Shown: piece after piece, positions 4,320-20,586 of the stretch | How the letters are laid out: each line of letters begins with the position of its first letter | How positions within the stretch are numbered: position 1 is the first letter of the stretch | Source of the DNA: an uncultured Bacilli bacterium | GTDB lineage: Bacteria; Bacillota_I; Bacilli_A; RF39; UBA660 | Direction of reading: 5' to 3' | DNA: 25,077 nucleotides | Assembly (NCBI GenBank): GCA_947856335.1 | Contig: CANUCD010000001.1 | Span: 1-25,077, forward strand | Notes under the pieces: generated by a model | Told to the model about the DNA's origin: nothing | What the model saw: the letters and a program-made list of their open reading frames with translations, nothing else | Database searches by the model: none | Made by a program: the position numbers and the translations under genes

Positions 4320-4321
4320 AT

Positions 4322-7380: not shown

Positions 7381-7396
7381 ACTTTCACCTGATAAT

Positions 7397-7425
7397 ATCA
7401 TAACATATTTGTGTTAAAAAAAAAA
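7397..7425 (-). promoter_or_regulatory. Putative internal extended -10 promoter for tagO-GT-C-GT2-DUF2304-wecB
   Basis: Minus strand TGT-TATGAT (7405-7397); the -35 position falls in a T10 tract (A10 at 7416-7425 on plus). Confidence 0.4.
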
Positions 7426-7454
7426 GAAAAGTACTTCATTATTTGCAAAAAAGA

Positions 7455-8183
7455 CTATTTTTGTTGAAGTTTCTTTTCTTTCTTTATTTCAAGTATAAAT
7501 TTTATATTATTATTATAAAATCTTTTTAATCTGCTTGGTTCTTTTAATATTCTATATAGCCATTCCAAGTTAAGTTTAATAAATATTTTGGGTGCCCTTT
7601 TTTTGTGTCCACTTATTACATCAAAAGAGCCTCCTACTCCTACAAATATTCCTTTTTTGAATTTATTTATGTATTTGTAAATCAGCTTTTCTTGTTCTGG
7701 TATTCCAAGGGCAACTAAAACTATGTCTGGCTCTTTTTTAATTATTTCTTTCATTATTATATCACGGTCATTCACATATCCATTTTGAAATCCACAAATT
7801 TTTAAATTTGGATAGTTTTCTTTTACATTTTTTATTAAATCATCTATTACTTCTTGTTTTGAGCCGAAAAAGTAAATGCTTTTTTTTAATTCATTCCCCA
7901 ATTTCAATAATTCATTTGCAATATCAATTCCTGCTATTCTTTCTGTAATATTAATACCTAAAATTTGAGCTGCTTTTACCACTCCTATTCCATCGGGGAC
8001 TATCAATACGTTATTATCATTCAATATTTTTGATACTGTTTCGTCTGTTTTAGCATATTTTAATGTCTCTGGGTTAGCTGTCACAATTAATTTTTTTTGT
8101 TTTTTATTTAGCAATGTTTTCAGATCTTCAAAAAACGTAATTTTCCCTTTATTATACATTTTTTCTAAATACTTTTTATACAT
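7455..8183 (-). CDS. tagA: WecB/TagA/CpsF family glycosyltransferase (ManNAc transferase)
   Basis: Start likely ATG 8183 (SD GAGGT). TANPE, PDGIGVV, ERIAGID, FFGSK, VALGIPEQE, GVGGSFDV, RAP, LEWLYR...P.R. Confidence 0.9.
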   Translation of the reverse strand: MYKKYLEKMYNKGKITFFEDLKTLLNKKQKKLIVTANPETLKYAKTDETVSKILNDNNVLIVPDGIGVVKAAQILGINITERIAGIDIANELLKLGNELKKSIYFFGSKQEVIDDLIKNVKENYPNLKICGFQNGYVNDRDIIMKEIIKKEPDIVLVALGIPEQEKLIYKYINKFKKGIFVGVGGSFDVISGHKKRAPKIFIKLNLEWLYRILKEPSRLKRFYNNNIKFILEIKKEKKLQQK

Positions 8184-8185
8184 AA

Positions 8186-9301
8186 TTACCTCTTTTCTAA
8201 TAGTGCTATCCAAAGTTTTTGTACTTCTTTAATATTATATTTATTTTTTCTTTTATTATTTTCCAGTATTTTTTTTTGTAAAACTTGTCTGTTATTAAAA
8301 TAGTATAAAACCTTTTCAGCCATTAAATTAATGTCTCTATTTGGTATTAAAATTTCTTTGTCATTTTCAAGTATTTCACAAGCACCTTGAGCGGTATCAA
8401 AAGCTATTGGTAGAATCCCAGCTTCCATTGCTTCCAATAAAACAATTCCAAAAGATTCAGTGTAAGAAGTCATTAAAAATATCGTACTATCAACTAAATG
8501 TTTGGATATTTCTTTACTATTCAAAGTTCCAAGTAAATGAATTTTATTCTCTAAATGATAATCTTTGATTTTGTTTTCTATTTTTTCTTTCTCTGGACCA
8601 TCACCAATTAATGATAGGTCAATATTTTTATCTTTTTCATTTACTTTTTCCATAACATCTATTAAATCTAAAAATCCTTTTTCAGAGCTTAGTCTACCAA
8701 CACTAATAATTTTATTATTGCTTATATCTGACTTTTTACTAATATTTAAATCGTATGTATTTGGTATATAAACACATTTTATATTGGTTTTATCTTTATA
8801 AAAATTATAAAGCTCTTTGGATACTAATACAAAATAATCTAGTTTTTTTATGCAATTTAAAGTTTTTGTAATATATTTTTTGTTATTATTATGATGGTTA
8901 TGCTCAGTTGCAATTTTTATTATTTCCCTTTTGGCATATTTGCCAACATATTTGTTATGGAAAGCTCGCGTTGTTATAATATAATCGCTCTTTATTTTTT
9001 TTATAGCATCAATATTTAATTTTCTCTTTAAGTATAATATTTTTAATGATTTATATCCTTCTTTAAATATCTTTCCTAATTTAATATGTTTGATAGCGTG
9101 TTTTAATTCTTCTCTATTAGATATATCATTTATAAGATAAGTTATTTTGGCATTACAAAAATCATAAATTCTATTTTTGCTTTTGTAAGTAAAAATAATT
9201 TCTATATCATAATAATTCTTTAACATTAAACATAGTGTTGAAATGTATTTTTCTGCACCACCTACTCCATCATGTAAAGCTAAAATTGTTATTTTTTTCA
9301 T
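8186..9301 (-). CDS. Family 4 (GT-B) glycosyltransferase
   Basis: GGAEK near the N-terminus, ISVGRLSSEKG, S..ESFGIVLLEAM. Confidence 0.9.
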   Translation of the reverse strand: MKKITILALHDGVGGAEKYISTLCLMLKNYYDIEIIFTYKSKNRIYDFCNAKITYLINDISNREELKHAIKHIKLGKIFKEGYKSLKILYLKRKLNIDAIKKIKSDYIITTRAFHNKYVGKYAKREIIKIATEHNHHNNNKKYITKTLNCIKKLDYFVLVSKELYNFYKDKTNIKCVYIPNTYDLNISKKSDISNNKIISVGRLSSEKGFLDLIDVMEKVNEKDKNIDLSLIGDGPEKEKIENKIKDYHLENKIHLLGTLNSKEISKHLVDSTIFLMTSYTESFGIVLLEAMEAGILPIAFDTAQGACEILENDKEILIPNRDINLMAEKVLYYFNNRQVLQKKILENNKRKNKYNIKEVQKLWIALLEKR

Positions 9302-10011
9302 TATTTATTTCTCGAAATATACTTTCTGTATTTTTCTGCTTTTGCTTTAGTATTTATACTTAATTTTAGCTTCTTCATAATTTTATATTTCAAAGACTTT
9401 TTATTGTCTAACCACGAACCAGTAAATACATGAATTGATACAGAATCTTTTGATGGATTACAAAAAATATAGTCTGGATAGACTGCTATATCATCTTTTA
9501 AAATTTGATATTTATTTCCTAATTCGCACTTATAATCGTTTATCAAAATATTTGAAACAGAAATGGTGTTGTTACTTGAGAAGTCAAAGTTGTATAATTT
9601 TAGTTCATCATAATAATCAAGCATTTTTTTAGTCAATAAATGATGCTTTTTAGCTCCGAAAACTGCCGTAAATGGGTGAGTATCATTTTCAAAGCCTACA
9701 AAAGCATCGTGTTGTAAGTACTTATCAAAATTATCTAGTAATATAACATCTGTATCTAAATAAATTCCTCCTTCATGATAAATTACATATGCTCTTATAT
9801 AATCGCTAACATATGCCCATTTTTTGGCTTCATATGCTGCTTTACAAAAAGGATGGGAATTGATATCGAAATTATTTTCATTCCATTCTTTGATTTCATA
9901 ACCTTCTAAGTGTTTTTGCCAAGTTTTCATACATTTTTGAATATCTTTAGGCTTTGGATTGCCCCCTACCCATATGTAATGGATTATTTTGGGTATTTTA
10001 TCTTTTTTCAT
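9301..10011 (-). CDS. GT32/OCH1-like DXD glycosyltransferase (capsular polysaccharide synthesis type)
   Basis: Start likely ATG 10011 (SD GGAGG, overlapping the upstream TAA). IPKIIHYIWVGG, SDYIR, GGIYLDTDV. Confidence 0.9.
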   Translation of the reverse strand: MKKDKIPKIIHYIWVGGNPKPKDIQKCMKTWQKHLEGYEIKEWNENNFDINSHPFCKAAYEAKKWAYVSDYIRAYVIYHEGGIYLDTDVILLDNFDKYLQHDAFVGFENDTHPFTAVFGAKKHHLLTKKMLDYYDELKLYNFDFSSNNTISVSNILINDYKCELGNKYQILKDDIAVYPDYIFCNPSKDSVSIHVFTGSWLDNKKSLKYKIMKKLKLSINTKAKAEKYRKYISRNK

Positions 10012-11174
10012 TATTCCTCCTTTATTACAATTGTTATGAATGGGTATATACATAAAAATTTAGTAATATTTATCATTTTTTTATAGTCTTTTTCATTTGA
10101 TACTTCTATTGTTTTAAAACCATCTTGCATTTCTTTAATTATTTTTAAATATATTGATGATAGATTATTATTTAACAAATCGTTATTAAACTTTCTCATA
10201 TCTTTACCATAATAAATAAAATCTTGATTATCAATTTTATTAATTTTTATTGTCCGATTATTTTTGCTTTGGTAAAACGATAGCAAATTTGCTAAAAAAA
10301 GATTTTCTTTGTATTCATTTTTATATCTTTTTCTTAATATAAATTTAATAATTTTGCTTTTACATTTACTTTCTTTTTTTATGTAAATTGGTTTATATGT
10401 TATATGGGCTTTATTTAAAGTTCTAAATAAATAATATTGTAGTTTATAAAAAGGTATACTATAATATTTCATCAAATTAATTGCTGTTCTTAATTCGCCA
10501 TTTATTACATTTAATTTTCCTACTGGATTATTTATATAATTTCCTTCAAAAATACGATATTTAAAAAAAGGAAAAATAGCATTTTTTACATTTAGCATTG
10601 CTGGTTTTTCTCTTAGATCCAACCAAAACGGTGTATTCCAAGTTAAATAATTGTACTTCACTGTTGTCGTAAAACTTTTATATGTGTGAAAAGCTGTGTC
10701 AGTGTATAAATTTCTTCCTAACCATAAAAGCTGTAATGCTATAGTACTTTCACTTTTTTTATATTTTTTTACCTGTAAATTTCCAGTTATTTCTGATTTT
10801 TCGTTAATAATTATAGGACTAGATATTAAAGCATCTATTTTTGAGTTTTTAAACTCTTTTAAAGCTTTTTCTAGTACATATTTGTCTGCAAGCAAATCGT
10901 CTGAATGTAAAATGTAGATATAATCACCCGTAATGTATGGGAATATGTTTAAAATAGCATTTAATTGATCTTGATTATTATGATAATAATATTTTATTCT
11001 TTTTTCTTTTTTCTTCTTCAAATATTGTTGTATAATTTCCCTTGTATCGTCAGTTGATCCGTCATCAGAAATTAAAAGTTCCCAGTTTTTATATGTTTGC
11101 ATAACCACAGAGTCAAGAGCTTCTATGATACTTTCTGAATCATTATAAGTGGGCATAATAATTGTAAACTTCAT
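10011..11174 (-). CDS. Family 2 glycosyltransferase
   Basis: Start likely ATG 11174 (SD AGGAG). IIMPTYN, QTYKNWELLISDDGSTD, LHSDD. Confidence 0.88.
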   Translation of the reverse strand: MKFTIIMPTYNDSESIIEALDSVVMQTYKNWELLISDDGSTDDTREIIQQYLKKKKEKRIKYYYHNNQDQLNAILNIFPYITGDYIYILHSDDLLADKYVLEKALKEFKNSKIDALISSPIIINEKSEITGNLQVKKYKKSESTIALQLLWLGRNLYTDTAFHTYKSFTTTVKYNYLTWNTPFWLDLREKPAMLNVKNAIFPFFKYRIFEGNYINNPVGKLNVINGELRTAINLMKYYSIPFYKLQYYLFRTLNKAHITYKPIYIKKESKCKSKIIKFILRKRYKNEYKENLFLANLLSFYQSKNNRTIKINKIDNQDFIYYGKDMRKFNNDLLNNNLSSIYLKIIKEMQDGFKTIEVSNEKDYKKMINITKFLCIYPFITIVIKEE

Positions 11175-11190
11175 ATCTTTTCTCCTCGTA

Positions 11191-11222
11191 ATTATCATAT
11201 CAAAAATGTAGTAGAAAATCAA
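11191..11222 (-). promoter_or_regulatory. Putative promoter for the GT2-GT32-GT4-tagA unit
   Basis: Minus strand TTGATT (11222-11217) - 17 nt - TATGAT (11199-11194), with extended -10 TGA-TATGAT. Confidence 0.6.
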
Positions 11223-11252
11223 ATGTTTTACATTAAATTTAAAGCAGCAATT

Positions 11253-11288
11253 AAAAAAACTCATTATAAAAATATTTAATATAATGAG
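11253..11288 (-). terminator. Intrinsic terminator after the Wzy/ligase-like gene
   Basis: Perfect 9-bp stem CTCATTATA (11260-11268)/TATAATGAG (11280-11288), followed by T7 on the minus strand. Confidence 0.65.
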
Positions 11289-11302
11289 CATGTTTTTATA
11301 AA

Positions 11303-12610
11303 TTATTTATTTTCCAATGTTATTTTAGGTTTTAGCGAAAAGAAAATGTACAAATAATATATTGTTAAAAATGATGATACAGCTGGTGCACTAATAATAT
11401 GCCCTGCAAAAAATCCTATACCTAATATTAGCAAAAACATTAAAATTGCATAACTTAAATTTAAATTCCATTTATAGCTTTTTGATTTAACGGATTTTAT
11501 TAAACTGTATAGAAGAAATAAGTATGGGAAACACAAAATTAAAAAGCCAATTAACCCATAATGGTAAAAAATGTCAAAAAAATCCATTTCTGCTATTTTT
11601 ATTTCTTGTTTTTCGGCATCATAAAAACCAATACCAAATAATTTATCTACTACATTAGCCTCCATATATTCTTTATTCATTTCCTTAACTTTAATATCTC
11701 GGTTACTTAATAGTTGTGATAAAAAACTTTCTTCTGGTTTAGGGGGCTGTTGCGGATTCGGTTGTATAGTTGTATTAGGAGGCACGGTTTCTACAATAGG
11801 CTGCTTCTCATTTTTAGAATTATATTCTTCAATATTTGCATACAATTTATCACCAAACGGAGAATATAAAATTGAATAAATAAGTATTATTATTAATAGA
11901 AAAGCCTTATTAATTACTTTTTTTCTCTTAAAGAGAATATATAATATTGCATATATAATTATAACCATTCCTAATCCAATTGTAGCTACTTTTGTAGCAA
12001 TTGCTAATATAGTTAAAATCGAAATAAATGATATTATTAGAAACCAGATTTTGTGCTTTTCTAATAAAGAAAATGTTGCCGGATAAAGCATTAATAATAT
12101 GGGTCCAACTTCATTTGCGGCATAAAACCAACCAACTAAACCATACTTTTCTCTAACATAAGAATTGAAACTTGATTGCAAAATTACGGGTAGTAGAATA
12201 AATATTATATAAAATATTAAACCTATTAAAAATATTTTTTGCCATTTTTTCGTGTCAAAGCCATATTCATCACATAAGTTTAACATTCCTAATATTAAAA
12301 TTGGGAAATACATAAACTTAAATATTAAATTTGCTTCATTATAAAGTGCCCGTAATGTGAAATATTCTGGTTTTGTTAAAATGTATGTTATTGCAAATAT
12401 CGCTAATATTGAAAAATATATTATAGTTAATTTCTTATATTTAGATTTTGATAGGAAGAAAACATACATTACTAAAAAAACAAGTAAAGATATTCGGACT
12501 ATAACTCCAATTGTTAATGGGAAATCACCATACCTTGTCATTAAACCAGTAAGTAAATTAATTAATGGAAATAATAAAAATATAATATACATCGCTTTTA
12601 TTTTTTTCAT
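11303..12610 (-). CDS. O-antigen ligase/Wzy-like polytopic membrane protein (polymerase or ligase)
   Basis: Start likely ATG 12610. About 11 TM segments, 'GWFYAANE', 'ATKVA', late loop 'LSNRD...LFGIG', 'EMDFFDIFYHYG', 'AGHII.AP', as in O-antigen ligase-like proteins. Confidence 0.7.
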   Translation of the reverse strand: MKKIKAMYIIFLLFPLINLLTGLMTRYGDFPLTIGVIVRISLLVFLVMYVFFLSKSKYKKLTIIYFSILAIFAITYILTKPEYFTLRALYNEANLIFKFMYFPILILGMLNLCDEYGFDTKKWQKIFLIGLIFYIIFILLPVILQSSFNSYVREKYGLVGWFYAANEVGPILLMLYPATFSLLEKHKIWFLIISFISILTILAIATKVATIGLGMVIIIYAILYILFKRKKVINKAFLLIIILIYSILYSPFGDKLYANIEEYNSKNEKQPIVETVPPNTTIQPNPQQPPKPEESFLSQLLSNRDIKVKEMNKEYMEANVVDKLFGIGFYDAEKQEIKIAEMDFFDIFYHYGLIGFLILCFPYLFLLYSLIKSVKSKSYKWNLNLSYAILMFLLILGIGFFAGHIISAPAVSSFLTIYYLYIFFSLKPKITLENK

Positions 12611-12641
12611 TTCATTATAAACTCCTTTGGGCTGCCTATAT

Positions 12642-12673
12642 AAAAGTTTAACATAATTTTTTATATTCGACAA
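12642..12673 (-). promoter_or_regulatory. Putative internal promoter for the Wzy-like gene
   Basis: Minus strand TTGTCG (12673-12668) - 17 nt - TAAACT (12650-12645), with extended -10 TGT; SD AGGAG at 12626-12622. Confidence 0.5.
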
Positions 12674-12680
12674 TATTTTT

Positions 12681-14189
12681 TTATTCAGTATACTTTCCTT
12701 TTACTTTAATAAATTCTATTCCACGTTTGATTAGCGATCTAAACGATTTAAATAGAGCAAAGAAAAAAATAGTTAATATAATACCAGTTATAATTGCAAA
12801 AATTATTACATAAATCATCCACATAGTTACTTTAGAAAATTGTAACTCTAAATAATTAAAGGCAAATATAAATAGTAGATTGATTATTAGCACAATAAAA
12901 TATATTACAAAATAATGAATTGGATTTCTTTTAAATATATTTTTAAATATATATATAGCATTGAATATAAATGTTGTAGCAAACCTTGAAAGAACTGTTC
13001 CTAATAGTACTCCCATTATGCCTAGCTTGTGAATTAGTGAAAAAGATATGATAATGTTTAATATGGCTTCTAGAATCGTTGCTTTTTTTGTTTCTTTAAA
13101 TAAGCATAAACCATTTATTACTATTGTTGTTGCTTTATCTACAATTAATTGGAATAAAATTAGGCAAAATAGGGATAATGTAAAGTTTGTTACTACATAT
13201 TCTTGCCCTACCCAAAATTTAATTAATGAATTTAAAAAACCGTACAGCATTATATTAATAAAACTAGCTATAAACAAGAAAAAAATGTACATTTCTGTAA
13301 ACACCATATACTTTTTTTCTCCTTGTTCTTTAAACATTACATTAGCAAAACTTGGTGTAATTGCTGAAGAAACTAAAAAGACTATATCACCTAAAAATTT
13401 AGTGATATAATTATATGATGAGTATATAATAACACTAATTGGATTAATAAAAGTTGAAATTAAAATAATGTCTGTATTTGAATTTAAAAGATCCGCACCT
13501 TTTCTCCAAATCATATCTTTCGTTCCCTTTAAATAACTTTTATTAAATTTTTTATTATCTTTTAGCCATGGATATTCTTTAAATATTTTTTTATTAATGA
13601 TTAAATCTACTACAACTGTTAAAACAATACCTGGAATTAAAATAAAGAGATAGTCTACACCTAATAATACTAGGATTATTTCAATTATAGTTTCTGCTAT
13701 TCTTATACTTTTAACTCCTAAATTAATTTTATATGACTTTTGATCAGCTTCAATTACGAAACGTGGAGCTATAAAGAAATAATCAACAATATTTCTGATT
13801 ATAAATATAAGGAATATAAGCTGTATATATCCAATAGGCAAATCTGCTTTTGTAAAAAAATGAACAAAAAAGCTGATAATTAGTGCTATTATAAAGATTA
13901 TTGAGCCAATGATACTATAAAATCTTTTTGATGTACTATAAATGTCGTTAATTTCTTTAGTATCATTTTTTGCAAATGCACTATAAAGTTTTTTATTGAG
14001 TAATAAACTAAATCCAATATCTGTAATAGCAAGATAACTAAATATTTGATAAAATAGTTGATTTAGTGAATAAACATCATTACTAAGACCGTTTACAAAA
14101 ATTCTAATTTTTACAAAGCCTAAAATTCCAACTATTAAAGTTAAACTAACAGACGTAATGATATTTTTAAGAGTGTTTTTTGTACGCAT
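12681..14189 (-). CDS. wzx: Wzx/MOP family polysaccharide flippase
   Basis: Start likely ATG 14189 (MRTKNTLKN). About 12-14 TM segments, 'R.F...L...Y.LN.LF.QI.SYL...D.G', 'ADQK.Y', 'TD.ILIS', 'EAILNI.ISF.L...LGIMGVLLGT'. Confidence 0.85.
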   Translation of the reverse strand: MRTKNTLKNIITSVSLTLIVGILGFVKIRIFVNGLSNDVYSLNQLFYQIFSYLAITDIGFSLLLNKKLYSAFAKNDTKEINDIYSTSKRFYSIIGSIIFIIALIISFFVHFFTKADLPIGYIQLIFLIFIIRNIVDYFFIAPRFVIEADQKSYKINLGVKSIRIAETIIEIILVLLGVDYLFILIPGIVLTVVVDLIINKKIFKEYPWLKDNKKFNKSYLKGTKDMIWRKGADLLNSNTDIILISTFINPISVIIYSSYNYITKFLGDIVFLVSSAITPSFANVMFKEQGEKKYMVFTEMYIFFLFIASFINIMLYGFLNSLIKFWVGQEYVVTNFTLSLFCLILFQLIVDKATTIVINGLCLFKETKKATILEAILNIIISFSLIHKLGIMGVLLGTVLSRFATTFIFNAIYIFKNIFKRNPIHYFVIYFIVLIINLLFIFAFNYLELQFSKVTMWMIYVIIFAIITGIILTIFFFALFKSFRSLIKRGIEFIKVKGKYTE

Positions 14190-14203
14190 TTTTATCATCC
14201 CCA

Positions 14204-15343
14204 CTATTCTTTGATATCAAAATTACCACAATTCAGATTTTCGACAAATCTTTTTGTGGCTTGACCATCATTTAAGTAATTAAATTTTTTATTGAATTTT
14301 TTTAATTTTTTCTCATATCCAGTAAAACTAGTATCTAAATTTTTTAAAGTATTATAAAGTTCTTTTTCTGTATAACATATTGGTCCTGGCATTATTTTTT
14401 GATAATCGATTACAATTCCTGGATAAGTACTATATTTTTCATAATCATATGGATACAGAATAATTTTTTTATCCGTTAATGCAAATTCATAGATTGATGC
14501 TGAATAATCTGATATTAATATATCAGTTATTGGGTATAAATCTACTATATCAGGTACATTTTCGCAATTTATAAAATTAGAATTCTTAAAAATATTTTTA
14601 TCAGTTTTAGAGTTTAATAGTGGATGCAATCTTACTAAAAACACATAGTCTTGTAATTCACATAGCGATTCAATATTTAATTTTATGTTTTCCTTTCCTA
14701 ATAAATCTTCACGATACGTTGGTGCATATAATACTATTTTTTTATCTAAAGGAATATTATACTTCTTTTTTAAATTTTCAATTTCATCTGATGATAGTTT
14801 TTTAGATCTTGCAATTGGATCTGTGCTGGGTATGCCTAATCTAAAAATCTTTTGGTCAAATCCTGTTGAATTTTTTATCTGCGTTTCTTCTTCTTCACAC
14901 ATAGATATATATATATCCCAGTCCTGAATATGTTTTAATTTATTTTCTGTATGCTCTTTTCTATATTCATCTATTTCTAGTCCCATCTTTTTTACAGGTC
15001 CGTGACCATGGAATGTTTGAATATAAATTTGAGATTTTTTCTTTTTTAATACTGGATTTACACTGTCGCTCATTATCCAATATTTAGCTTTTGAGATATA
15101 ATATAAAGATTTCAATGTCCGGTGATAACATATATCTTTGCTGTCTAATTTATCAATTTCTGTACCTTTATATACCATGTATTTCATATTAAATTTTGAA
15201 TTGCAATTTTTCTTCAAGTATAAGTATATTTCTCTTGGATTTCCATCAACTCTATTTCTACTAGAAAAAAAGACAATATGATTATCTTCTACTTTAAAAA
15301 TCTTAAAAAATAGATTTAAAAAGAAAATTATAATGTTTTTCAT
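14204..15343 (-). CDS. CDP-glycerol glycerophosphotransferase family protein (TagB/TagF-like)
   Basis: QTFHGHGPVKKMG (cf. QTWHGTPLK), LYAPTYRE, LVRLHP, DILISDYSAS.YEF, ILYPYD, DGQATKR. Confidence 0.88.
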   Translation of the reverse strand: MKNIIIFFLNLFFKIFKVEDNHIVFFSSRNRVDGNPREIYLYLKKNCNSKFNMKYMVYKGTEIDKLDSKDICYHRTLKSLYYISKAKYWIMSDSVNPVLKKKKSQIYIQTFHGHGPVKKMGLEIDEYRKEHTENKLKHIQDWDIYISMCEEEETQIKNSTGFDQKIFRLGIPSTDPIARSKKLSSDEIENLKKKYNIPLDKKIVLYAPTYREDLLGKENIKLNIESLCELQDYVFLVRLHPLLNSKTDKNIFKNSNFINCENVPDIVDLYPITDILISDYSASIYEFALTDKKIILYPYDYEKYSTYPGIVIDYQKIMPGPICYTEKELYNTLKNLDTSFTGYEKKLKKFNKKFNYLNDGQATKRFVENLNCGNFDIKE

Positions 15344-17172
15344 TTTACGCCTTTCATATATTCTTTATATTTTTTTAAGGCATCAACTAGAGTTTGATTT
15401 TCTTTTTCTGTTTTTACGGCAATCCTAATAAAACTTTCATTATCAAAGCCTTTTTTGCTCGATAAATCTTTAATTAATAAATTATATTTTTCTAATAAAT
15501 ATAGTGTTAAATCCTGTGAATCCATATCAATTAATTTAACCATAACATAATTTGCCTGAGAAGCATAAACTTCTATGAATTCTAATTTTTTTAGTTGTTC
15601 TATAAATTTTTTCCTTGTTTCACATATTTTATTGCATGCTATCTCATAGTTTTTACTAAACGGAACAAATATTTGCAAAAAATATTCTGCAAAAGAATTA
15701 ATATTCCAAACAGGCATATTATCTTTAAATTCTTTTAAAAATTCCTTATTTGATGAAGCTAGAACGCCTAATCTTAAACCTGGTATGCCATAAGATTTAC
15801 TTATGCTTTTTATGACGATTAAATTTTCATATTTATCTAAAATCTTGTCATCAATTAAGGTATAGCGTAATTCTGGTTCAGCAAAATCAATAAATGACTC
15901 ATCAAAAATAATTATTTTATTTTTAGCATTATATTTGTCTATTACTTCTAGTATATCTTCATATTTTATAAAGCTTCCACTTGGATTATCAGGATTTATA
16001 ATAACTAAAGCATCTATTTTATCAATATACTGTAACAAATAATCTTTTGTTAATTGATAGTTATTTTCTTTTGTGTTTAAAAATACTATTTCAGTGTTTG
16101 GTAAACATCTAACATACTCATTAAAAGTAGGAAATGGAATTCCAATCTTTCCTTTTAATATCACTTTTAGTTGATTAATTAATTCTGCAGCACCATTTCC
16201 AACTAGTAGTTTGCTTTCATCGACATTGTTAAAAAAACGTGATATGCAATTACTTTGTATACTCATTGTAGAAGGATAATCTACTAATAAATTTTCAAAA
16301 TTGTATTTCATTTTATCAATCATTGCTTGCGTAGGAAAATACGGATTTACTAAATAGCAAAAATCAATCAGCTCTTTAAATCTCCAATATCCGCCAAATC
16401 TTTTTTGATACAATTCTAGTTGTTGCTTTCCGCTCGAAAAAAACAAAGTTGCAATGTCTAGATCTTGACAATCATCTATTTCATACCACTTTTCTTTGGT
16501 TATTTTAAATGCTTTTATCCCTGATTTTGGAATAGACGAAATAACTTTTAATACTAATTCATAGTAATCATTTTTACCATAAGCATTTATATATGCCTCT
16601 AAAAAAGGAAGATAATAATTATTTAAGTATTCTTTACTAAATTTATAAATATTTACCGTTTTATAATATTTATTTATATCACTATAATTAAAATCAGCTT
16701 TTTCAATAAACTCTATAATATTATCATTTTCATCTATCGTAACTACAGTACCATCCATCCATTCATCATATTTGGCAACTACAGCAGCATTTGTATATGG
16801 TGAATTTACTAATTTTTTTATTATATTTTGTTCATATATTAAATCTGATTCTAACAAAATGGTATCATCTTGACATAATTGATCTTTTGCCATATATAAT
16901 GAATAAATATTATTAGTTGAATCATAGTCATTATTATCTATAAAGGTAATTTTTATTTTTTTATCTAGGTTATGTTTTTTTATATATTTTTTTAAATAAT
17001 CTTTTTTATATCCTACTACTAATAATAGACTATGAATGTTTGCTTCTAGTAAGGCATCTATTGCTCTTTCTAATAGAGAAATCCCGTTGATCTCTAACAT
17101 GCACTTCGTATTATTTTTTGTATATTTTCCTAATCTCTTGCCTTTACCGGCCGCTAACATGATTGCTTGCAT
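15340..17172 (-). CDS. Fusion: N-terminal LicC-like (phosphocholine-type) cytidylyltransferase + C-terminal class I/II PLP enzyme (CobD/HisC-like)
   Basis: N-terminal AAGKGKRL, KCML, VGYKK, NNIYSL, ESDL, WYEID. C-terminal DFCYLVNPYFP, NPDNPSG, DESFIDF, SISKSYGIPGLRLG (PLP Lys), SQANY, IRIAV. Confidence 0.88.
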   Translation of the reverse strand: MQAIMLAAGKGKRLGKYTKNNTKCMLEINGISLLERAIDALLEANIHSLLLVVGYKKDYLKKYIKKHNLDKKIKITFIDNNDYDSTNNIYSLYMAKDQLCQDDTILLESDLIYEQNIIKKLVNSPYTNAAVVAKYDEWMDGTVVTIDENDNIIEFIEKADFNYSDINKYYKTVNIYKFSKEYLNNYYLPFLEAYINAYGKNDYYELVLKVISSIPKSGIKAFKITKEKWYEIDDCQDLDIATLFFSSGKQQLELYQKRFGGYWRFKELIDFCYLVNPYFPTQAMIDKMKYNFENLLVDYPSTMSIQSNCISRFFNNVDESKLLVGNGAAELINQLKVILKGKIGIPFPTFNEYVRCLPNTEIVFLNTKENNYQLTKDYLLQYIDKIDALVIINPDNPSGSFIKYEDILEVIDKYNAKNKIIIFDESFIDFAEPELRYTLIDDKILDKYENLIVIKSISKSYGIPGLRLGVLASSNKEFLKEFKDNMPVWNINSFAEYFLQIFVPFSKNYEIACNKICETRKKFIEQLKKLEFIEVYASQANYVMVKLIDMDSQDLTLYLLEKYNLLIKDLSSKKGFDNESFIRIAVKTEKENQTLVDALKKYKEYMKGVK

Positions 17173-17185
17173 ACTTCTTTCTCCT

Positions 17186-18127
17186 TTATACCCACTTTTT
17201 TTCCTGTGGTGCTTTTAAGTCAATTTCTTTCGTTTTTTCATTTTTGCACATATCATATATTTTTTTAGCAAAATAAATATCGAATATGGAATTACCTATA
17301 TTATAAGCCATTATTTTTTCTTTATTATCTTTTCTGCCGAGATCTTTATTTGTTAAGACTTCTGATAATTCATGTACTTCCTTAAATTTATCAAAATACT
17401 TAAATCCTTGTACATGGCCGATATCATCGACTATAAATTTATCAAAAAACAAGTCACAATTTTGAAAGCCTAAAGTGTGGATTGGTACGACTAAGCAACC
17501 ATCTTTAAACCATTCATCTTTGCCAAAATTTATATCTGTACTGGTTACGCAAGAAACTATGATATCACTATTTTTTATTAAATCTTCATAATTATCGACT
17601 ATATTAAAGTTAATATTTTTACAATGTTGAAATCGTTCTAAAAATCTTTCAGCCTGGTCTTTATATTTATATACTTTTAAATTTATTTTGTCCTTTATTC
17701 TTTTTGAAAAAATGTTCATGAAAGCATAGGCAATATTCCCTAGACCTATAATTGCTACATTTTTGTAATCTTCAATTGCTAATGTTTCAATAGCTAAAAC
17801 TGCTACTGCTGCAGTACGATAGGCAGTAATAATATTTCCATCTAATAAAGCTAAATTTTGTCCTGTATTAGAATCATATAGTATTATTTGACTATCTAAT
17901 GCCGGTTTCCTTTCAGGATATCTGCTTACGATTTTAACTCCTGCCACATTTAGCGAATCAATTATTGAAGGCATTACATTAATAAAAATATGGCCTTCTT
18001 TTTTCATACTAATTTTTGGTGGTAACTGGCAATTTTTTTTATCTAGAAAAACTTGCTTAGTCCACTCCATATATTCATCTGTGCTTAAATTTAGATTCTT
18101 AATCATTTCAAAATCAATTATTTTCAT
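17186..18127 (-). CDS. Ornithine cyclodeaminase/mu-crystallin family NAD(P)-dependent oxidoreductase
   Basis: Start likely ATG 18127 (SD GGAGG). MPS, GVKIVSRYP, LYDSNTG, ITAYRTAA, Rossmann IGLGNIA, SDIIVSC. Confidence 0.88.
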   Translation of the reverse strand: MKIIDFEMIKNLNLSTDEYMEWTKQVFLDKKNCQLPPKISMKKEGHIFINVMPSIIDSLNVAGVKIVSRYPERKPALDSQIILYDSNTGQNLALLDGNIITAYRTAAVAVLAIETLAIEDYKNVAIIGLGNIAYAFMNIFSKRIKDKINLKVYKYKDQAERFLERFQHCKNINFNIVDNYEDLIKNSDIIVSCVTSTDINFGKDEWFKDGCLVVPIHTLGFQNCDLFFDKFIVDDIGHVQGFKYFDKFKEVHELSEVLTNKDLGRKDNKEKIMAYNIGNSIFDIYFAKKIYDMCKNEKTKEIDLKAPQEKKWV

Positions 18128-18153
18128 TTGTTCCTCCAATTTTTTATATAAGT

Positions 18154-18182
18154 ATTATAACATATTTAATAATCCGTTTAAA
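18154..18182 (-). promoter_or_regulatory. Putative promoter for the OCD-LicC/PLP-TagF-wzx operon
   Basis: Minus strand TTTAAA (18182-18177) - 17 nt - perfect TATAAT (18159-18154), with extended -10 TGT. Confidence 0.65.
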
Positions 18183-18276: not shown

Positions 18277-20586
18277 TCAATATTTCAAATTATTTGCCCA
18301 ATAGTAATTTATGTTAGTAAATTCATTTATATTTTCTTGATAATGACTAAGTGAAGCAGAAATATACTTTCCATCTTCTTTATAGTAAATCGGATTAATT
18401 ACATCTATTTTTTCTTTTAAATCATCAGTATATTTTAGATATTCATTACCTTCATAATCAATATATTCAAATAGTTCATTCATTAGGAAGTTAGGACTTA
18501 TTGTATCTAATTTGCCGATAAAATCTTTATCAAATACTTTTTTTGCTTGATCATTAGCATGAATTACATAAGGAATACTATAATAATTTTCAAAACCTTC
18601 AATTGTTGATATATCCATGTTTATTCCCAATTCTTCATATATATAGTTTCCTTCTCCTAGGTATGGATTATGATCTCCAAAGAATATTAATATAGTTGGT
18701 TCCTCATAATTATCTAAGAAATTCACTAACTCATATAAAGCATCAGTTGAATCTTTTATTCCTGATAAGTAATTATTAAATGTATTATACCCTTCTTCGC
18801 TGTATCCTAAATTCTCTATATAAGTTTCTTCAGCTGGTGTTGCTGAATAAGGACCATGATTTTGATAAGTTACAGTGAAGTTAAAATAATTATTACCCTT
18901 TTTATTTATTTCTTGAAGGCGATTAGTAAGTTCAGAATATAGTTCGTGATCATCAGCTGCACCTCCCCAGCCACTATAAATACCAAATTTATTTTCATAA
19001 TTCCAATAAGTATCAAAACCTAAGTTTGCATTAACTGTATTTCTATTATAAAAAGCTCCATAAATTGGGTGCATAGCTTCTACTATATATCCTTGTTCTT
19101 TAAAATATCTTGCATAAGAATTAGTTGGTTTTCTAAATGACGGAAAAGCATTGTATCCTGTAATAAAACGTCGCTCAGTATTTACTGTTCCGCCACCAAA
19201 TATATCGACAATAATATTACCATATAAAGAATTTTCTTTTATTTCTTCTAATTTACCATAAACATCGCTTGTAAATTCAATAGTATCAAATTTTGAAAAA
19301 TCATTATATGCCTCTAACATAATTGCAATAATATTTACTTTTTTATCTTCCGGAATATTCTCATATGTATAGTTATTTAATATTTCTTTGGCTTCTTCTT
19401 CATTATAGCCAGCTGGTTTGCTATCTAAAATTTCCGTGCTGCTATAAATAAATGGATAAATAAGTCCTCTTATTTGTGATTGTCTTGTAGAAATCCAAAT
19501 ATTTATATTTGAAGTGTTTCCTATGCTATTATAAATATCGCTATTAGTGTAAATGTTTTGATAAGTAAAATAACTGATTATTAATAATGCAATAGCGATG
19601 GGAATAGTTATTATTGCTTTTAGGTTAATTTTCTTATAGTTCTTTTTTAGCCAAAGAACTATTATTAAGCATAGTAATATACATATAACTGTATACCATC
19701 TTACAATAACATCGTATCTGCTAGTCATTAATAATGCTTCTTTAAAGTAGGAAATATCCTCAATTTTAAAGACATCGTCTCGATAATATAACTTTGTTTT
19801 ATTAATTATACCTATCAAGAAAACAAAAAATGAAGCAATTCCAAAAGAAAGCCATAACCTTTTAGTAAGAAACAAGAAAATAAGTATTACTAACAAAATA
19901 GGAAATAGATTTAACATTAATAATTTCGGCTCATTTAAATAATTATTAATCATACTTGTATCTAAATAAACTGTGGTAAAAGTAAAGGAAATAAGCAATA
20001 ATAAAATTGATAGAACGATCGGCATAGCACATCTAAATATTACCCTTAAAACTTTATTGTTTTTATATTGTATGAAGATTTTTCCTTTTTTTACATATGT
20101 ATATTTTGATTGAAACAAACTACTGTTTTTAAACTTGTGATAATAGGCTTCTTGGTACTTAGTATTGTTATGCGTTATTTGATCTGAATAATCATTTAAA
20201 TCTAGTTCATACTTATCATTCATTTTACTAGCGATTAAGGTCTCTTTCTTTAAAAATGGTTTTACAATTATTTCTGGGCTTTGAGTAATAATTGTATTAT
20301 CAGACGAGTAATGATCTTGATACCATTCGTTTAATTTTTTTTGATGAGTAACCTTAAATTTCTCAATAACATTATTCAAATTTTTTACATGTTTAATATA
20401 AACATGATATTTTTTGGATTTATTAATTTCAGCTTTTGTGGATATAAAACTTAATAAATAAAGCAAAATATGTAAAAAAATATAAATACAAAGCTTTTTG
20501 TTTTTGCGGCAACAAAATAGAAAAAAATCTCGATCAATATTTCCCTTATATACTATTTTGGAAAATTCATATATATTTTTCATCAT
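18277..20586 (-). CDS. LTA synthase/GacH-like phosphoglycerol transferase (sulfatase/alkaline phosphatase fold) with an N-terminal degenerate HAD-like domain
   Basis: About 5 TM segments after ~aa 180, then IMLEAY, GGGTVNTE (nucleophile Thr), HPIYGAFYNR, TYQNHGPY, FGDHNPY. The first ~170 aa resemble HAD-IB phosphatases without the catalytic Asp. Confidence 0.85.
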   Translation of the reverse strand: MMKNIYEFSKIVYKGNIDRDFFLFCCRKNKKLCIYIFLHILLYLLSFISTKAEINKSKKYHVYIKHVKNLNNVIEKFKVTHQKKLNEWYQDHYSSDNTIITQSPEIIVKPFLKKETLIASKMNDKYELDLNDYSDQITHNNTKYQEAYYHKFKNSSLFQSKYTYVKKGKIFIQYKNNKVLRVIFRCAMPIVLSILLLLISFTFTTVYLDTSMINNYLNEPKLLMLNLFPILLVILIFLFLTKRLWLSFGIASFFVFLIGIINKTKLYYRDDVFKIEDISYFKEALLMTSRYDVIVRWYTVICILLCLIIVLWLKKNYKKINLKAIITIPIAIALLIISYFTYQNIYTNSDIYNSIGNTSNINIWISTRQSQIRGLIYPFIYSSTEILDSKPAGYNEEEAKEILNNYTYENIPEDKKVNIIAIMLEAYNDFSKFDTIEFTSDVYGKLEEIKENSLYGNIIVDIFGGGTVNTERRFITGYNAFPSFRKPTNSYARYFKEQGYIVEAMHPIYGAFYNRNTVNANLGFDTYWNYENKFGIYSGWGGAADDHELYSELTNRLQEINKKGNNYFNFTVTYQNHGPYSATPAEETYIENLGYSEEGYNTFNNYLSGIKDSTDALYELVNFLDNYEEPTILIFFGDHNPYLGEGNYIYEELGINMDISTIEGFENYYSIPYVIHANDQAKKVFDKDFIGKLDTISPNFLMNELFEYIDYEGNEYLKYTDDLKEKIDVINPIYYKEDGKYISASLSHYQENINEFTNINYYWANNLKY

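What the first reader, a model, noticed from the sequence alone, without database searches (positions are those of the whole stretch)
14204..18182. Candidate pathway for an unusual CDP-activated amino-alcohol phosphate: OCD-like reductase + LicC-PLP fusion + TagF-like transferase
Seen: one promoter precedes tightly coupled OCD/mu-crystallin, LicC-like cytidylyltransferase fused to a PLP enzyme, TagB/F-like transferase and Wzx. The PLP domain motifs DESFIDF and IPGLRLG resemble CobD (L-threonine-O-3-phosphate decarboxylase). Established knowledge: LicC activates phosphocholine; HisC/CobD-like enzymes in Campylobacter capsule loci make ethanolamine- or serinol-phosphate; OCD/mu-crystallin enzymes reduce imines. 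Inference A: phospho-Ser/Thr is decarboxylated, reductively N-alkylated with pyruvate to an opine-like N-(1-carboxyethyl)amino-alcohol phosphate (a substituent type I recall from Proteus O-antigens), CDP-activated and transferred by the TagF-like enzyme instead of LicD. Inference B: OCD acts as an alanine dehydrogenase recycling the amino donor for DHAP to serinol-phosphate. Either route would give a zwitterionic wall polymer.
Basis: partly seen in the sequence, partly recalled or inferred. Interest (0 to 1): 0.72.

Follow-up and report, generated by a model that had tools for sequence, protein, structure and literature searches.

The report
Opine-type phospho-amino-alcohol wall decoration cassette
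A small-genome gut-type Gram-positive bacterium carries a tightly packed gene set that most likely makes CDP-ethanolamine from phosphoserine, probably adds a carboxyalkyl ("opine") group to its nitrogen, and attaches the product to a wall polysaccharide. I found no paper describing genes for this kind of decoration.

Summary
On the minus strand lie an OCD/mu-crystallin homologue (17186-18127), a LicC-like cytidylyltransferase fused to a CobD-like PLP domain (15340-17172), a TagF-like phosphotransferase (14204-15343) and Wzx (12681-14204), with gaps of 13 bp or less.

The genes co-occur elsewhere. Of 56 scorable fusion clusters, 15 have an adjacent OCD gene, 13 have an adjacent genuine opine dehydrogenase (Octopine_DH family), none has both, and 28 have neither. 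On the fusion tree the two dehydrogenase types are intermixed, so they have replaced each other repeatedly. It argues against Inference B, as does the same OCD clade occurring in Lic-type loci with no PLP enzyme.

Phosphoserine to ethanolamine is the favoured route:
- The nearest solved homologue is a CobD-type decarboxylase (6OUX).
- FrbH has the same domain order.
- Serine-kinase-like DUF1015 genes flank the fusion in six loci.

TagF-like is the only family member and TagD is absent in this 87%-complete genome, so it probably uses the fusion's product. No phosphoserine source was found in this genome.

All chemistry is inferred. I found no paper on the cassette. This scan has met it before on other DNA, with the same reading.

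The parts
18277..20586 (-). LtaS/EptA-like membrane protein of the sulfatase family. It has a soluble N-terminal extension of about 180 aa, about five TM segments and an extracellular catalytic domain. It is a probable accessory part of the module.
   Evidence: Pfam Sulfatase at residues 418-691, 4.2e-20; translation. Sulfatase-family ORFs lie in 11 of 14 TagF-type fusion clusters but only 2 of 28 LicD-type clusters (Pfam).
18154..18182 (-). Promoter-like site (TTTAAA, 17 nt, extended -10 TG-n-TATAAT) in the 137-bp gap upstream of the OCD gene.
   Evidence: As a class these sites are not enriched over shuffles, so it is only a candidate.
17186..18127 (-). OCD/mu-crystallin-family NAD(P)-dependent enzyme (313 aa from ATG 18127). 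Proposed imine reductase that N-carboxyalkylates the amino-alcohol head group.
   Evidence: Pfam PF02423 3.2e-33. It falls far below every NCBIfam equivalog cut-off. Best solved match is 4M54 at 1e-19, with the GxGxxA, GVK and YRTAA motifs conserved. RBS and start codon. An adjacent OCD is seen in 15 of 56 scorable fusion clusters. The clade lies next to LicC-like genes in 4 of 4 genomes of a 400-genome draw.
16438..17172 (-). LicC-like nucleotidyl(cytidylyl)transferase domain of the fusion protein (about residues 1-245).
   Evidence: Pfam NTP_transferase and NTP_transf_3. PDB matches LicC 1JYK 3.2e-13 and PntC-AEPT 6PD1 9.2e-13. The LAAGxGxRLG motif is invariant in 15 homologues.
15340..16401 (-). 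CobD-like PLP domain of the fusion protein (about residues 258-610, plus stop). Proposed (CDP-)phosphoserine decarboxylase.
   Evidence: TIGR01140 CobD 175 bits against hisC 146 bits. PDB 6OUX 3.8e-44, 3FKD 6.5e-30 and CobD 1LC5 2.4e-26, against 1e-17 or weaker for most HisC-labelled chains; the exception is 3FTB at 7e-37, which I take to be an uncharacterised structural-genomics entry. PLP Lys459, Asp424, Asn396 and Arg583 are invariant.
14204..15343 (-). TagF/TarF-like CDP-alcohol phosphotransferase (379 aa), translationally coupled to the fusion gene. Proposed to transfer the head-group phosphate onto the lipid-linked repeat unit.
   Evidence: Pfam Glyphos_transf 2.2e-81. TarF model 186 bits against a cut-off of 550. 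It is the only Glyphos_transf in the genome, and no TagD-type cytidylyltransferase was found. TagF-like genes adjoin the fusion in other loci.
12681..14204 (-). Wzx-type flippase (507 aa), overlapping the TagF-like gene by 1 bp.
   Evidence: Weak Pfam Polysacc_synt hit (7.5e-4). Homologous ORFs sit beside many fusion genes.
2849..12673 (-). Rest of the wall-glycan operon: Wzy/O-antigen-ligase-like, GT2, DXD glycosyltransferase, GT4, TagA/WecG, TagO/WecA-like GT4-family transferase, PMT_2, GT2, DUF2304 and UDP-GlcNAc 2-epimerase. This is the acceptor polymer's assembly line.
   Evidence: Pfam.

Best explanation
The four genes are a head-group cassette inside a Wzx/Wzy-type wall-polysaccharide operon.

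1. The fusion protein takes a phospho-amino acid, most likely O-phospho-L-serine. Its LicC-like domain joins it to CMP. Its CobD-like PLP domain removes the carboxyl group, giving CDP-ethanolamine. The order is taken from FrbH; the reverse order is not excluded.
2. The OCD-family enzyme uses NAD(P)H to reduce the imine formed between the head group's primary amine and a 2-oxo acid (pyruvate is the obvious candidate). This gives a CDP-activated N-(1-carboxyalkyl)ethanolamine, an 'opine-type' head group like the N-(1-carboxyethyl)ethanolamine phosphate of Proteus O-antigens.
3. The TagF-like enzyme transfers the phospho-head group from the CDP donor onto the undecaprenyl-linked repeat unit.
4. 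Wzx flips the unit and the Wzy-like protein polymerises it.

The upstream LtaS-like protein probably belongs to the TagF-type version of the system; its role is open.

What is shown: domain content, conserved gene neighbourhood, interchange of two dehydrogenase families, and the absence of other CDP-alcohol synthases in this genome. What is inferred: every substrate and product.

My odds by layer:
- CDP-amino-alcohol head-group pathway: 0.85.
- Phosphoserine to ethanolamine by decarboxylation: 0.6.
- OCD as opine-type N-carboxyalkylating reductase: 0.45.
- TagF-like enzyme using this donor: 0.6.
For: **Domains**
- The NT domain is LicC/PntC-like.
- The PLP domain matches CobD-type decarboxylases far better than most HisC-labelled chains (6OUX 3.8e-44 and 1LC5 2.4e-26, against 1e-17 or weaker; the exception, 3FTB at 7e-37, I take to be an uncharacterised structural-genomics entry). 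The CobD model scores 29 bits above the hisC model.
- 6OUX carries the same molecule name as SMUL_1544. I recall that enzyme as the L-serine-O-phosphate decarboxylase of norcobamide synthesis.

**Precedent**
- FrbH has the same N-terminal cytidylyltransferase plus C-terminal decarboxylase layout. It cytidylylates an amino-phosphonate and then decarboxylates it (PMC8976061; PMC9088020).

**Context**
- The fusion family has more than 8000 members.
- In every context inspected it lies among surface-glycan or envelope-lipid genes, and LicD or TagF-like transferases lie within 10 kb in most clusters.

**Dehydrogenase swap**
- Of 56 scorable 90%-identity clusters, 15 have an adjacent OCD gene, 13 an adjacent Octopine_DH-family gene, none both, and 28 neither.
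- No third dehydrogenase family turned up among the 'neither' loci.
- The Octopine_DH neighbour matches scallop octopine dehydrogenase over its full length (2.5e-28) and also N-(1-D-carboxyethyl)-L-norvaline dehydrogenase.
- On a maximum-likelihood tree of 71 fusions the two types are intermixed. At least 9 changes are forced for each, with well-supported sister pairs of opposite type.
- As far as I know, the chemistry the two families share is NAD(P)H-dependent reduction of an amine/2-oxo-acid imine (my knowledge of SbnB, ketimine reductases and opine dehydrogenases).

**OCD follows the head-group machinery, not the PLP step**
- In a 400-genome draw its close homologues occur in 4 genomes. 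Two sit beside the fusion. Two sit in loci with a LicC-like NT, a choline-kinase fusion, Amidohydro_3 and LicD or a CDP-alcohol phosphatidyltransferase, but no PLP enzyme.

**Phosphoserine as substrate**
- DUF1015 genes (proposed serine kinases 'SerBK', bioRxiv 10.1101/2024.10.14.618325) adjoin the fusion in 4 of the 7 genome loci inspected and lie one gene away from it, just past the dehydrogenase, in 2 of the 80 metagenome loci. These include two SerC-less Mollicutes.
- In one Mollicute the next gene is an Mf1 equivalog (326 bits, cut-off 225). Mf1 accepts CDP-ethanolamine in vitro (PMC11982090).
- One locus has DUF1015, the fusion and OCD together (G275), so OCD is not the phosphoserine supplier.

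**TagF-like enzyme as the transferase**
- It is the only Glyphos_transf in the genome. No TagD-type enzyme and only one other weak NTP_transf_3 hit were found.

**The product type exists in nature**
- N-[(R)-1-carboxyethyl]ethanolamine phosphate occurs in Proteus mirabilis O-polysaccharides (PMC9630907).
Against: - No enzyme of this cassette has been assayed, and every product is inferred.
- This genome (87% complete) shows no source of phosphoserine: no SerC, no 2-hydroxyacid dehydrogenase, no DUF1015, no GHMP or choline kinase, and no PhnU2-like importer.
- Four of seven near-complete fusion-bearing genomes lack SerC, though at least three of these have DUF1015 at the locus.
- TagF-family enzymes are known to me only with CDP-glycerol or CDP-ribitol donors. 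A diol such as serinol would suit them better than ethanolamine.
- Half of the fusion loci have no dehydrogenase, so the OCD step is optional and its place in the sequence is unknown.
- I know of no OCD-family enzyme shown to synthesise an opine. SbnB works in the oxidative direction.
- The DUF1015 neighbours match the Pfam model only partly (1e-15 to 1e-21), so they may phosphorylate something other than serine.
- CobD-like versus HisC-like assignment by score is not proof of reaction type.
Confidence: 0.45

Rival explanations
1. The decoration is plain phosphoethanolamine. The fusion makes CDP-ethanolamine and the TagF-like enzyme transfers it unchanged. The OCD enzyme has an auxiliary role other than modifying the head group, such as amino-acid or redox housekeeping linked to the pathway, or making or salvaging the precursor.
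For: - Half of the fusion loci work without any dehydrogenase.
- LicD-type Mf1 accepts CDP-ethanolamine (PMC11982090).
- OCD-family members have many activities, and none of the NCBIfam equivalogs is met.
Against: - An auxiliary role does not explain why an unrelated opine dehydrogenase replaces OCD repeatedly in the same position.
- It does not explain why the OCD clade also sits in PLP-less Lic-type loci.
- It does not explain why OCD coexists with a serine-kinase-like gene in one locus.
Confidence: 0.2
2. This is a serinol-phosphate pathway. The PLP domain is an aminotransferase that turns DHAP into serinol phosphate. The NT domain makes CDP-serinol. The TagF-like enzyme adds, or even polymerises, serinol phosphate. 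The dehydrogenase recycles the amino donor or further alkylates the amine.
For: - DHAP is available in any glycolytic cell, whereas this genome shows no phosphoserine source.
- TagF-family enzymes normally use diol phosphates.
- Some loci pair the fusion with long TagF-like proteins and TagGH-type ABC exporters, with no other cytidylyltransferase in view.
- A Mollicute with an Mf1 equivalog has the fusion next to it. From memory, Mycoplasma fermentans GGPL-III contains 2-amino-1,3-propanediol phosphate.
- HisC-like DHAP aminotransferases exist (Cj1437; papers listed).
Against: - The PLP domain scores far closer to decarboxylases than to most HisC-labelled chains.
- FrbH, with the same architecture, is a decarboxylase.
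- Serine-kinase-like DUF1015 neighbours fit phosphoserine rather than DHAP.
- Donor recycling does not fit an Octopine_DH replacement or the PLP-less OCD loci.
Confidence: 0.12
3. This is an aminopropanol-phosphate pathway. The PLP domain is a true CobD-type L-threonine-O-3-phosphate decarboxylase, and the head group is (R)-1-amino-2-propanol phosphate, with or without N-alkylation.
For: - The best NCBIfam model is CobD.
Against: - The score is well below the CobD equivalog cut-off (175 against 291 bits).
- The nearest solved homologue is 6OUX (155 bits) rather than Salmonella CobD (96 bits).
- No GHMP kinase, the family to which the threonine kinase PduX belongs (my own knowledge), was found in this genome.
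- The kinase-like neighbour seen elsewhere is of the proposed serine-kinase family.
Confidence: 0.07
4. This is a phosphonate head group. The cassette activates 2-aminoethylphosphonate or a related aminophosphonate, as PntC and FrbH do.
For: - The NT domain resembles PntC (6PD1).
- FrbH acts on a phosphonate.
- Some fusion loci carry a PhnS2/PhnU2-like ABC importer.
Against: - No PEP mutase was found in this genome, and no PhnU2-like importer either.
- None of the gene lists returned for fusion contexts shows a PEP mutase or phosphonopyruvate decarboxylase family.
Confidence: 0.03

Closest known systems
FrbH of FR-900098 biosynthesis (Streptomyces rubellomurinus)
   Same: It has the same two-domain layout: an N-terminal cytidylyltransferase and a C-terminal CobD-like PLP decarboxylase. 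It activates an amino-acid phosph(on)ate with CTP and then decarboxylates it (PMC8976061; PMC6697681).
   Different: FrbH acts on 2-amino-4-phosphonobutyrate in an antibiotic pathway. Here there are no phosphonate genes, the context is a wall-glycan operon with a transferase and flippase, and a dehydrogenase partner is attached. I could not obtain the FrbH sequence, so direct similarity was not measured.
Lic phosphocholine pathway (LicA/LicB/LicC/LicD) of Streptococcus pneumoniae and Haemophilus, and Mf1 of Mycoplasma fermentans
   Same: The logic is the same: a LicC-type enzyme makes a CDP-activated amino-alcohol, and a phosphotransferase puts the phospho-head group on a surface glycan or glycolipid. 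LicC is the best solved match of the NT domain. Most relatives of the fusion are paired with LicD.
   Different: This cassette has no choline importer or kinase. The amino-alcohol phosphate is made internally by a PLP domain. In this window the transferase is TagF-like, not LicD. An imine-reducing dehydrogenase is added.
CobD / SMUL_1544 (PDB 1LC5, 6OUX), phospho-amino-acid decarboxylases of cobamide synthesis
   Same: These are the closest solved homologues of the PLP domain (3.8e-44 and 2.4e-26). The conserved PLP-lysine and phosphate/carboxylate-binding positions are kept.
   Different: They are stand-alone enzymes in cobamide operons. The NCBIfam CobD equivalog cut-off is not met (175 against 291 bits).
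Opine dehydrogenases (octopine DH 3C7A/3IQD, CENDH 1BG6) and SbnB (4M54) of the OCD family
   Same: These are NAD(P)-dependent enzymes that make or break the C-N bond between an amine and a 2-oxo acid. The Octopine_DH partner of sister fusions matches octopine DH at 2.5e-28. The window's OCD matches 4M54 best, at 1e-19.
   Different: The proposed amine is an amino-alcohol phosphate or its CDP ester rather than an amino acid. SbnB runs oxidatively in siderophore precursor synthesis. No equivalog model is met.
TagF/TarF CDP-glycerol glycerophosphotransferases
   Same: There is a full-length Glyphos_transf domain (2.2e-81), and TarF is the best model.
   Different: The score is far below the TarF cut-off (186 against 550 bits). 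No CDP-glycerol synthase was found in the genome. The gene is translationally coupled to the fusion, so the donor is probably a CDP-amino-alcohol, which to my knowledge would be a new donor for this family.

Membership tests
LicC-type CTP:phospho-alcohol cytidylyltransferase (NTP_transferase fold) | N-terminal GxGxRL nucleotide-binding motif and LicC-like fold | tested here: met
   Pfam PF00483 and PF12804. LicC 1JYK 3.2e-13 and PntC 6PD1 9.2e-13. The motif is invariant in 15 homologues.
LicC-type CTP:phospho-alcohol cytidylyltransferase (NTP_transferase fold) | Uses CTP and phosphocholine | not testable with these tools
   This needs an enzyme assay. The lack of a choline kinase in this genome argues against phosphocholine as the substrate.
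CobD (L-threonine-O-3-phosphate decarboxylase, TIGR01140) | Score above the curated equivalog cut-off | tested here: not met
   174.9 bits against a cut-off of 290.55. It is the best-scoring model but not a member.
CobD (L-threonine-O-3-phosphate decarboxylase, TIGR01140) | Closer to decarboxylases than to histidinol-phosphate aminotransferases | tested here: met
   6OUX 155 bits, 3FKD 108 bits and 1LC5 96 bits, against 68 bits or less for most HisC-labelled chains. The exception is 3FTB at 131 bits, which I take to be an uncharacterised structural-genomics entry. CobD model 175 bits against hisC model 146 bits.
HisC histidinol-phosphate aminotransferase (TIGR01141) | Score above the curated equivalog cut-off | tested here: not met
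   145.6 bits against a cut-off of 276.55.
FrbH-type bifunctional cytidylyltransferase/decarboxylase | N-terminal cytidylyltransferase fused to a C-terminal CobD-like PLP domain | tested here: met
   Domain order. FrbH architecture from PMC8976061.
FrbH-type bifunctional cytidylyltransferase/decarboxylase | Cytidylylation followed by decarboxylation of the CMP-linked amino acid | not testable with these tools
   This needs an enzyme assay.
Ornithine cyclodeaminase/mu-crystallin family (PF02423) | Family domain, Rossmann GxGxxA motif and conserved Lys and Arg of the carboxylate site | tested here: met
   PF02423 3.2e-33 over residues 22-300. The GLGNIA, GVK and YRTAA motifs align with 4M54.
Ornithine cyclodeaminase/mu-crystallin family (PF02423) | Membership of a characterised subfamily (OCD, SbnB, archaeal AlaDH, Pyr2C/Pip2C reductase, BhcD, EutC) | tested here: not met
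   All NCBIfam equivalogs score 118 bits or less against cut-offs of 266-500 bits.
TagF/TarF/TarB CDP-glycerol glycerophosphotransferases | Glyphos_transf domain | tested here: met
   PF04464 2.2e-81, positions 9-364 of 367.
TagF/TarF/TarB CDP-glycerol glycerophosphotransferases | Equivalog score and a CDP-glycerol supply (TagD) in the genome | tested here: not met
   TarF 186 bits (cut-off 550), TarB 95 bits (cut-off 500), TarL 108 bits (cut-off 1000). The only CTP_transf_like hit is a marginal 20.6-bit one. The genome is 87% complete.
Phosphonate (PntC/AEP) head-group pathway | PEP mutase in the genome or locus | tested here: not met
   No PF13714 hit in this genome, and none in the gene lists returned for fusion contexts.

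The most novel reading that the evidence does not exclude
Gut bacteria of several lineages carry a kinase-free, self-supplied route from phosphoserine to a CDP-activated N-(carboxyalkyl)ethanolamine ('phospho-opine') head group. The N-alkylating step is done interchangeably by two unrelated dehydrogenase families, OCD/mu-crystallin and octopine-DH. In this window the head group is installed by a TagF-family enzyme using a CDP-amino-alcohol donor, possibly together with an LtaS-like extracytoplasmic transferase. This would assign genes to the carboxyethyl-ethanolamine-phosphate substituent known chemically from Proteus O-antigens, and it would widen the donor range of TagF enzymes.
Probability: 0.4. 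Interest if true: 0.75.

Novelty: new variant of a known kind. Interest (0 to 1): 0.6.

Why it matters
Phosphocholine and phosphoethanolamine decorations shape how hosts, antibodies, lectins, phages and cationic peptides see bacterial surfaces.

If this reading is right, the cassette gives bacteria a way to make such a head group without importing choline or ethanolamine, and to change its charge by turning the amine into an amino-acid-like secondary amine. The fusion family is very large (more than 8000 scored relatives, many from gut metagenomes), and about half of the loci carry the dehydrogenase. The chemistry could therefore be common in the gut yet invisible to current annotation.

It would also:
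- give a genetic handle on N-(1-carboxyethyl)ethanolamine phosphate, a substituent known from Proteus O-antigen chemistry;
- provide a clean natural case of two unrelated enzyme families replacing each other;
- suggest a new donor type for TagF-family transferases.

Tried and rejected
- **Genome-collection scan with the single protein.** It returned only one irrelevant locus, because the patterns were too specific. The alignment-based metagenome scan replaced it.
- **Names for close homologues.** None is on record.
- **Literature searches.** I searched for the fusion, for opine dehydrogenase or OCD together with LicD, teichoic acid or phosphoethanolamine, and for the genes behind the Proteus substituent. 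No description of the cassette turned up. The Proteus O-antigen gene-cluster paper and its supplements mention none of the relevant families.
- **A third dehydrogenase family in loci lacking OCD or Octopine_DH.** The neighbours are glycosyltransferases, flippases, ABC exporters, an integrase, NeuB, DUF3048, Hsp33 and similar.
- **The idea that OCD supplies phosphoserine.** Rejected because one locus has both a serine-kinase-like gene and OCD, and because OCD occurs in PLP-less loci.
- **The idea that SerC is required.** Rejected because 4 of 7 near-complete fusion-bearing genomes lack it.
- **Promoter statistics.** Promoter-like sites are not enriched in this AT-rich DNA.
- **One Pfam call failed** on guessed coordinates.
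- **Not attempted:** structure prediction and complex prediction. Neither would decide substrate identity, and I make no claim that the proteins bind each other.

Full report
**What is in the window**

The window is AT-rich (about 25% GC). It comes from an 0.84-Mb assembly that is 87% complete, whose relatives have genomes of 0.6-2.4 Mb and include TGA-recoded Mollicutes.

Most of the minus strand from 2849 to 20586 is one wall-glycan operon. In transcription order it encodes:
- an LtaS-like sulfatase-family membrane protein (18277-20586);
- an OCD/mu-crystallin homologue (17186-18139);
- a 610-aa NTP_transferase plus Aminotran_1_2 fusion (15340-17172);
- a Glyphos_transf protein (14204-15343);
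- a Wzx-like flippase (12681-14204);
- a Wzy/O-antigen-ligase-like protein, three glycosyltransferases, TagA/WecG, a TagO/WecA-type transferase, PMT_2, GT2, DUF2304 and a UDP-GlcNAc 2-epimerase.

The four genes of the finding are separated by +13, -4 and -1 bp. The OCD gene starts at ATG 18127, five bases after a GGAGG. A promoter-like site with an extended -10 lies at 18182-18154, but such sites are no more common here than in shuffled sequence.

**The fusion protein**

Its N-terminal 245 residues match LicC (1JYK, 3e-13) and the PntC domain of Tde1415 (6PD1).

The C-terminal domain matches the 'threonine phosphate decarboxylase-like enzyme' 6OUX best (3.8e-44). Next come 3FTB (7e-37, HisC-labelled; I take it to be an uncharacterised structural-genomics entry), 3FKD and Salmonella CobD 1LC5 (2.4e-26). 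The remaining histidinol-phosphate aminotransferase chains reach only 1e-17 or weaker. The NCBIfam CobD model scores 175 bits and the hisC model 146 bits, both below their cut-offs.

6OUX carries the annotation given to SMUL_1544. I recall that protein as the serine-phosphate decarboxylase of norcobamide synthesis; this rests on memory.

The one characterised protein I know with this architecture is FrbH. Its N-terminal domain cytidylylates 2-amino-4-phosphonobutyrate, and its C-terminal domain then decarboxylates the CMP conjugate (PMC8976061; PMC9088020; PMC6697681).

The fusion family is very large, with 8000 scored relatives, the scoring limit. Its catalytic positions are invariant in 15 diverse members.

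**Co-occurrence**

I fetched 80 metagenome loci and several assembly contexts. I marked neighbours with profile models built from the window's own proteins and from locus proteins.

The 93 fusion genes fall into 68 clusters at 90% identity, and 56 of these have enough flank to score.
- 15 have an OCD gene within 400 bp.
- 13 have a gene of the Octopine_DH family (PF02317) within 400 bp.
- None has both, and 28 have neither.
- All but one of the dehydrogenase genes are on the same strand as the fusion.

The 'neither' loci hold no third dehydrogenase family. The Octopine_DH neighbour aligns over its full length with scallop octopine dehydrogenase (2.5e-28) and also matches N-(1-D-carboxyethyl)-L-norvaline dehydrogenase.

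A maximum-likelihood tree of 71 fusions shows the two kinds of locus thoroughly mixed. At least nine changes of each label are forced by well-supported branches, and there are sister pairs of opposite type. The window and its 74%-identical relative (OCD type) are closest to a 70%-identical Octopine_DH type. The careful tree search did not finish, so this is the quick tree with SH-aLRT support.

Two unrelated dehydrogenases that replace each other repeatedly beside near-identical partners most probably do the same job. As far as I know, the activity the two families share is NAD(P)H-dependent reduction of an imine between an amine and a 2-oxo acid.

**Where the OCD enzyme acts**

In a draw of 400 near-complete genomes of the phylum, close homologues of the window's OCD occur in four.
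- Two, this genome and G275, have it beside the fusion.
- Two, G325 and G185, have it beside a LicC-like nucleotidyltransferase, a wHTH-NT-choline-kinase fusion, an Amidohydro_3 protein, and LicD or a CDP-alcohol phosphatidyltransferase, with no PLP enzyme. In G185 the OCD gene is broken into three pieces.

The OCD clade therefore follows the CDP-amino-alcohol machinery, however the amino-alcohol phosphate is made. This fits action on the head group's amine. It does not fit recycling of an amino donor for a transaminase (Inference B), and neither does replacement by an opine dehydrogenase.

**Which phospho-amino acid**

DUF1015 genes adjoin the fusion in four of the seven genome loci inspected and lie one gene away from it, just past the dehydrogenase, in two of the 80 metagenome loci. 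A 2026 preprint proposes DUF1015 proteins to be serine kinases ('SerBK'), structurally related to the serine kinase SbnI (bioRxiv 10.1101/2024.10.14.618325).

Two of these loci are in SerC-less, TGA-recoded Mollicutes. In one of them the order is DUF1015, fusion, LicD, and that LicD is an Mf1 equivalog (326 bits, cut-off 225). Mf1 transfers phosphoethanolamine from CDP-ethanolamine in vitro (PMC11982090).

G275 has two LicD genes, DUF1015, the fusion, OCD and Wzx in a row. This shows that OCD does not stand in for a phosphoserine supply.

Another frequent type of locus (a 464-member cluster) replaces all this with an ABC importer. The importer is nearest to, but below the cut-offs of, the putative 2-aminoethylphosphonate transporter PhnS2/PhnU2, and it comes with an extra wHTH-nucleotidyltransferase and LicD.

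Together with the 6OUX match and the FrbH precedent, this favours phosphoserine to CDP-ethanolamine.

**The gap in this genome**

The assembly shows:
- no SerC, ThrB, GHMP kinase, choline kinase or PEP mutase;
- no PhnU2-like permease and no DUF1015;
- no 2-hydroxyacid dehydrogenase, where the only hit is a weak one on the OCD gene itself.

At 87% completeness this is not proof of absence, but the precursor's origin here is unexplained.

Across the draw, 3 of 7 fusion-bearing genomes have SerC against 16% overall, and 4 lack it. This keeps the serinol rival alive. DHAP is always available, and TagF-type enzymes normally handle diol phosphates. From memory, M. fermentans GGPL-III contains 2-amino-1,3-propanediol phosphate.

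**The transferase**

Most relatives of the fusion are paired with LicD. This window and about 14 clusters use a TagF-like protein instead.

In this genome the TagF-like gene is the only Glyphos_transf. There is no convincing TagD-type enzyme, and the only other NTP_transf_3 hit is a weak one on another contig. The fusion's product is therefore the only visible CDP donor. The protein is far below the TarF, TarB and TarL equivalog cut-offs.

TagF-type loci have a further signature. Sulfatase/LtaS-like membrane proteins occur in 11 of 14 TagF-type clusters against 2 of 28 LicD-type clusters. Some TagF-like and sulfatase-like proteins carry YidC-like (60KD_IMP) N-termini. The LtaS-like gene just upstream of OCD in this window therefore probably belongs to the module. 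Its role is open; one guess is transfer from a lipid-linked donor outside the membrane.

**Comparison with what is known**

- The logic is that of the Lic pathway: CDP-activated amino-alcohol, then a phosphotransferase.
- The fusion's architecture is that of FrbH.
- The PLP domain resembles CobD and SMUL_1544.
- The dehydrogenases resemble opine dehydrogenases and SbnB.

No curated equivalog model is met by any of the three proteins. I found no paper in the library that describes the cassette.

This scan has met the same cassette on other DNA several times, and follow-up agents reached the same reading. Those are unchecked AI notes that I read only after forming my view, and I do not count them as evidence.

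What this window adds:
- the TagF-like/LtaS-like variant;
- the DUF1015 and Mf1 links;
- the PLP-less OCD loci;
- the tree showing repeated OCD/Octopine_DH exchange;
- the missing precursor supply in a reduced genome.

**Verdict**

All chemistry remains to be tested.

Noticed in passing
window 18277-20586 (-); L109:8618-10105, L110:5830-7473, L111:14817-16775, L079:11838-14516: Sulfatase/LtaS-like membrane proteins accompany the fusion in 11 of 14 TagF-type clusters but only 2 of 28 LicD-type clusters. Some of them, and some TagF-like proteins, carry a YidC-like (60KD_IMP) N-terminal domain. This suggests a two-enzyme route for the TagF-type variant, one inside and one outside the membrane.
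   Followed up: partly
L100 (G154:C1) 8705-12430; L101 (G387:C9) 3310-6243: Two TGA-recoded, wall-less Mollicutes carry DUF1015 followed by the fusion. In G154 the next gene is an Mf1 equivalog (326 bits, cut-off 225), the glycolipid phosphocholine transferase of Mycoplasma fermentans. The pair may supply a second head group, ethanolamine-P or serinol-P, for glycoglycerolipids.
   Followed up: partly
L107 (G325:C17) 9214-15320; L108 (G185:C6) 1660-9007: The same OCD clade sits in PLP-less loci with a wHTH-NT-choline-kinase(-NT) fusion, a stand-alone LicC-like NT, an Amidohydro_3 protein, and LicD or a CDP-alcohol phosphatidyltransferase. In G185 the OCD gene is split into three ORFs and is probably a pseudogene.
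   Followed up: partly
L007:3787-7996 and L016, L019, L022: A very abundant fusion type (a 464-member cluster, including Hadza gut samples) is preceded by an ABC importer and a wHTH-nucleotidyltransferase. The importer is nearest to the putative 2-aminoethylphosphonate transporter PhnS2/PhnU2 but falls below its cut-offs. This suggests that an imported amino-phosph(on)ate is the substrate there.
   Followed up: partly
whole genome G000: No GHMP-kinase domain was found in the 87%-complete assembly, so no IspE, mevalonate-pathway kinases or GalK. SerC, ThrB and 2-hydroxyacid dehydrogenases were not found either. The organism looks strongly auxotrophic.
   Followed up: no
window 20882-21690 (-): A 157-aa Fic/DOC-domain ORF overlaps a preceding 112-aa ORF with no family hit. 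This may be a toxin-antitoxin-like pair lying upstream of the glycan operon.
   Followed up: no
My scan lists a promoter-like site at 20639-20611 (10 of 12, with TG). I did not check the repeat or look for an invertase.
   Followed up: no
L110:15791-17053: One TagF-type fusion locus of the ABC-exporter (TagGH-like) kind carries an Amino_oxidase/NAD_binding_8 flavoprotein among its glycosyltransferases. This may be a different amine-tailoring enzyme.
   Followed up: no
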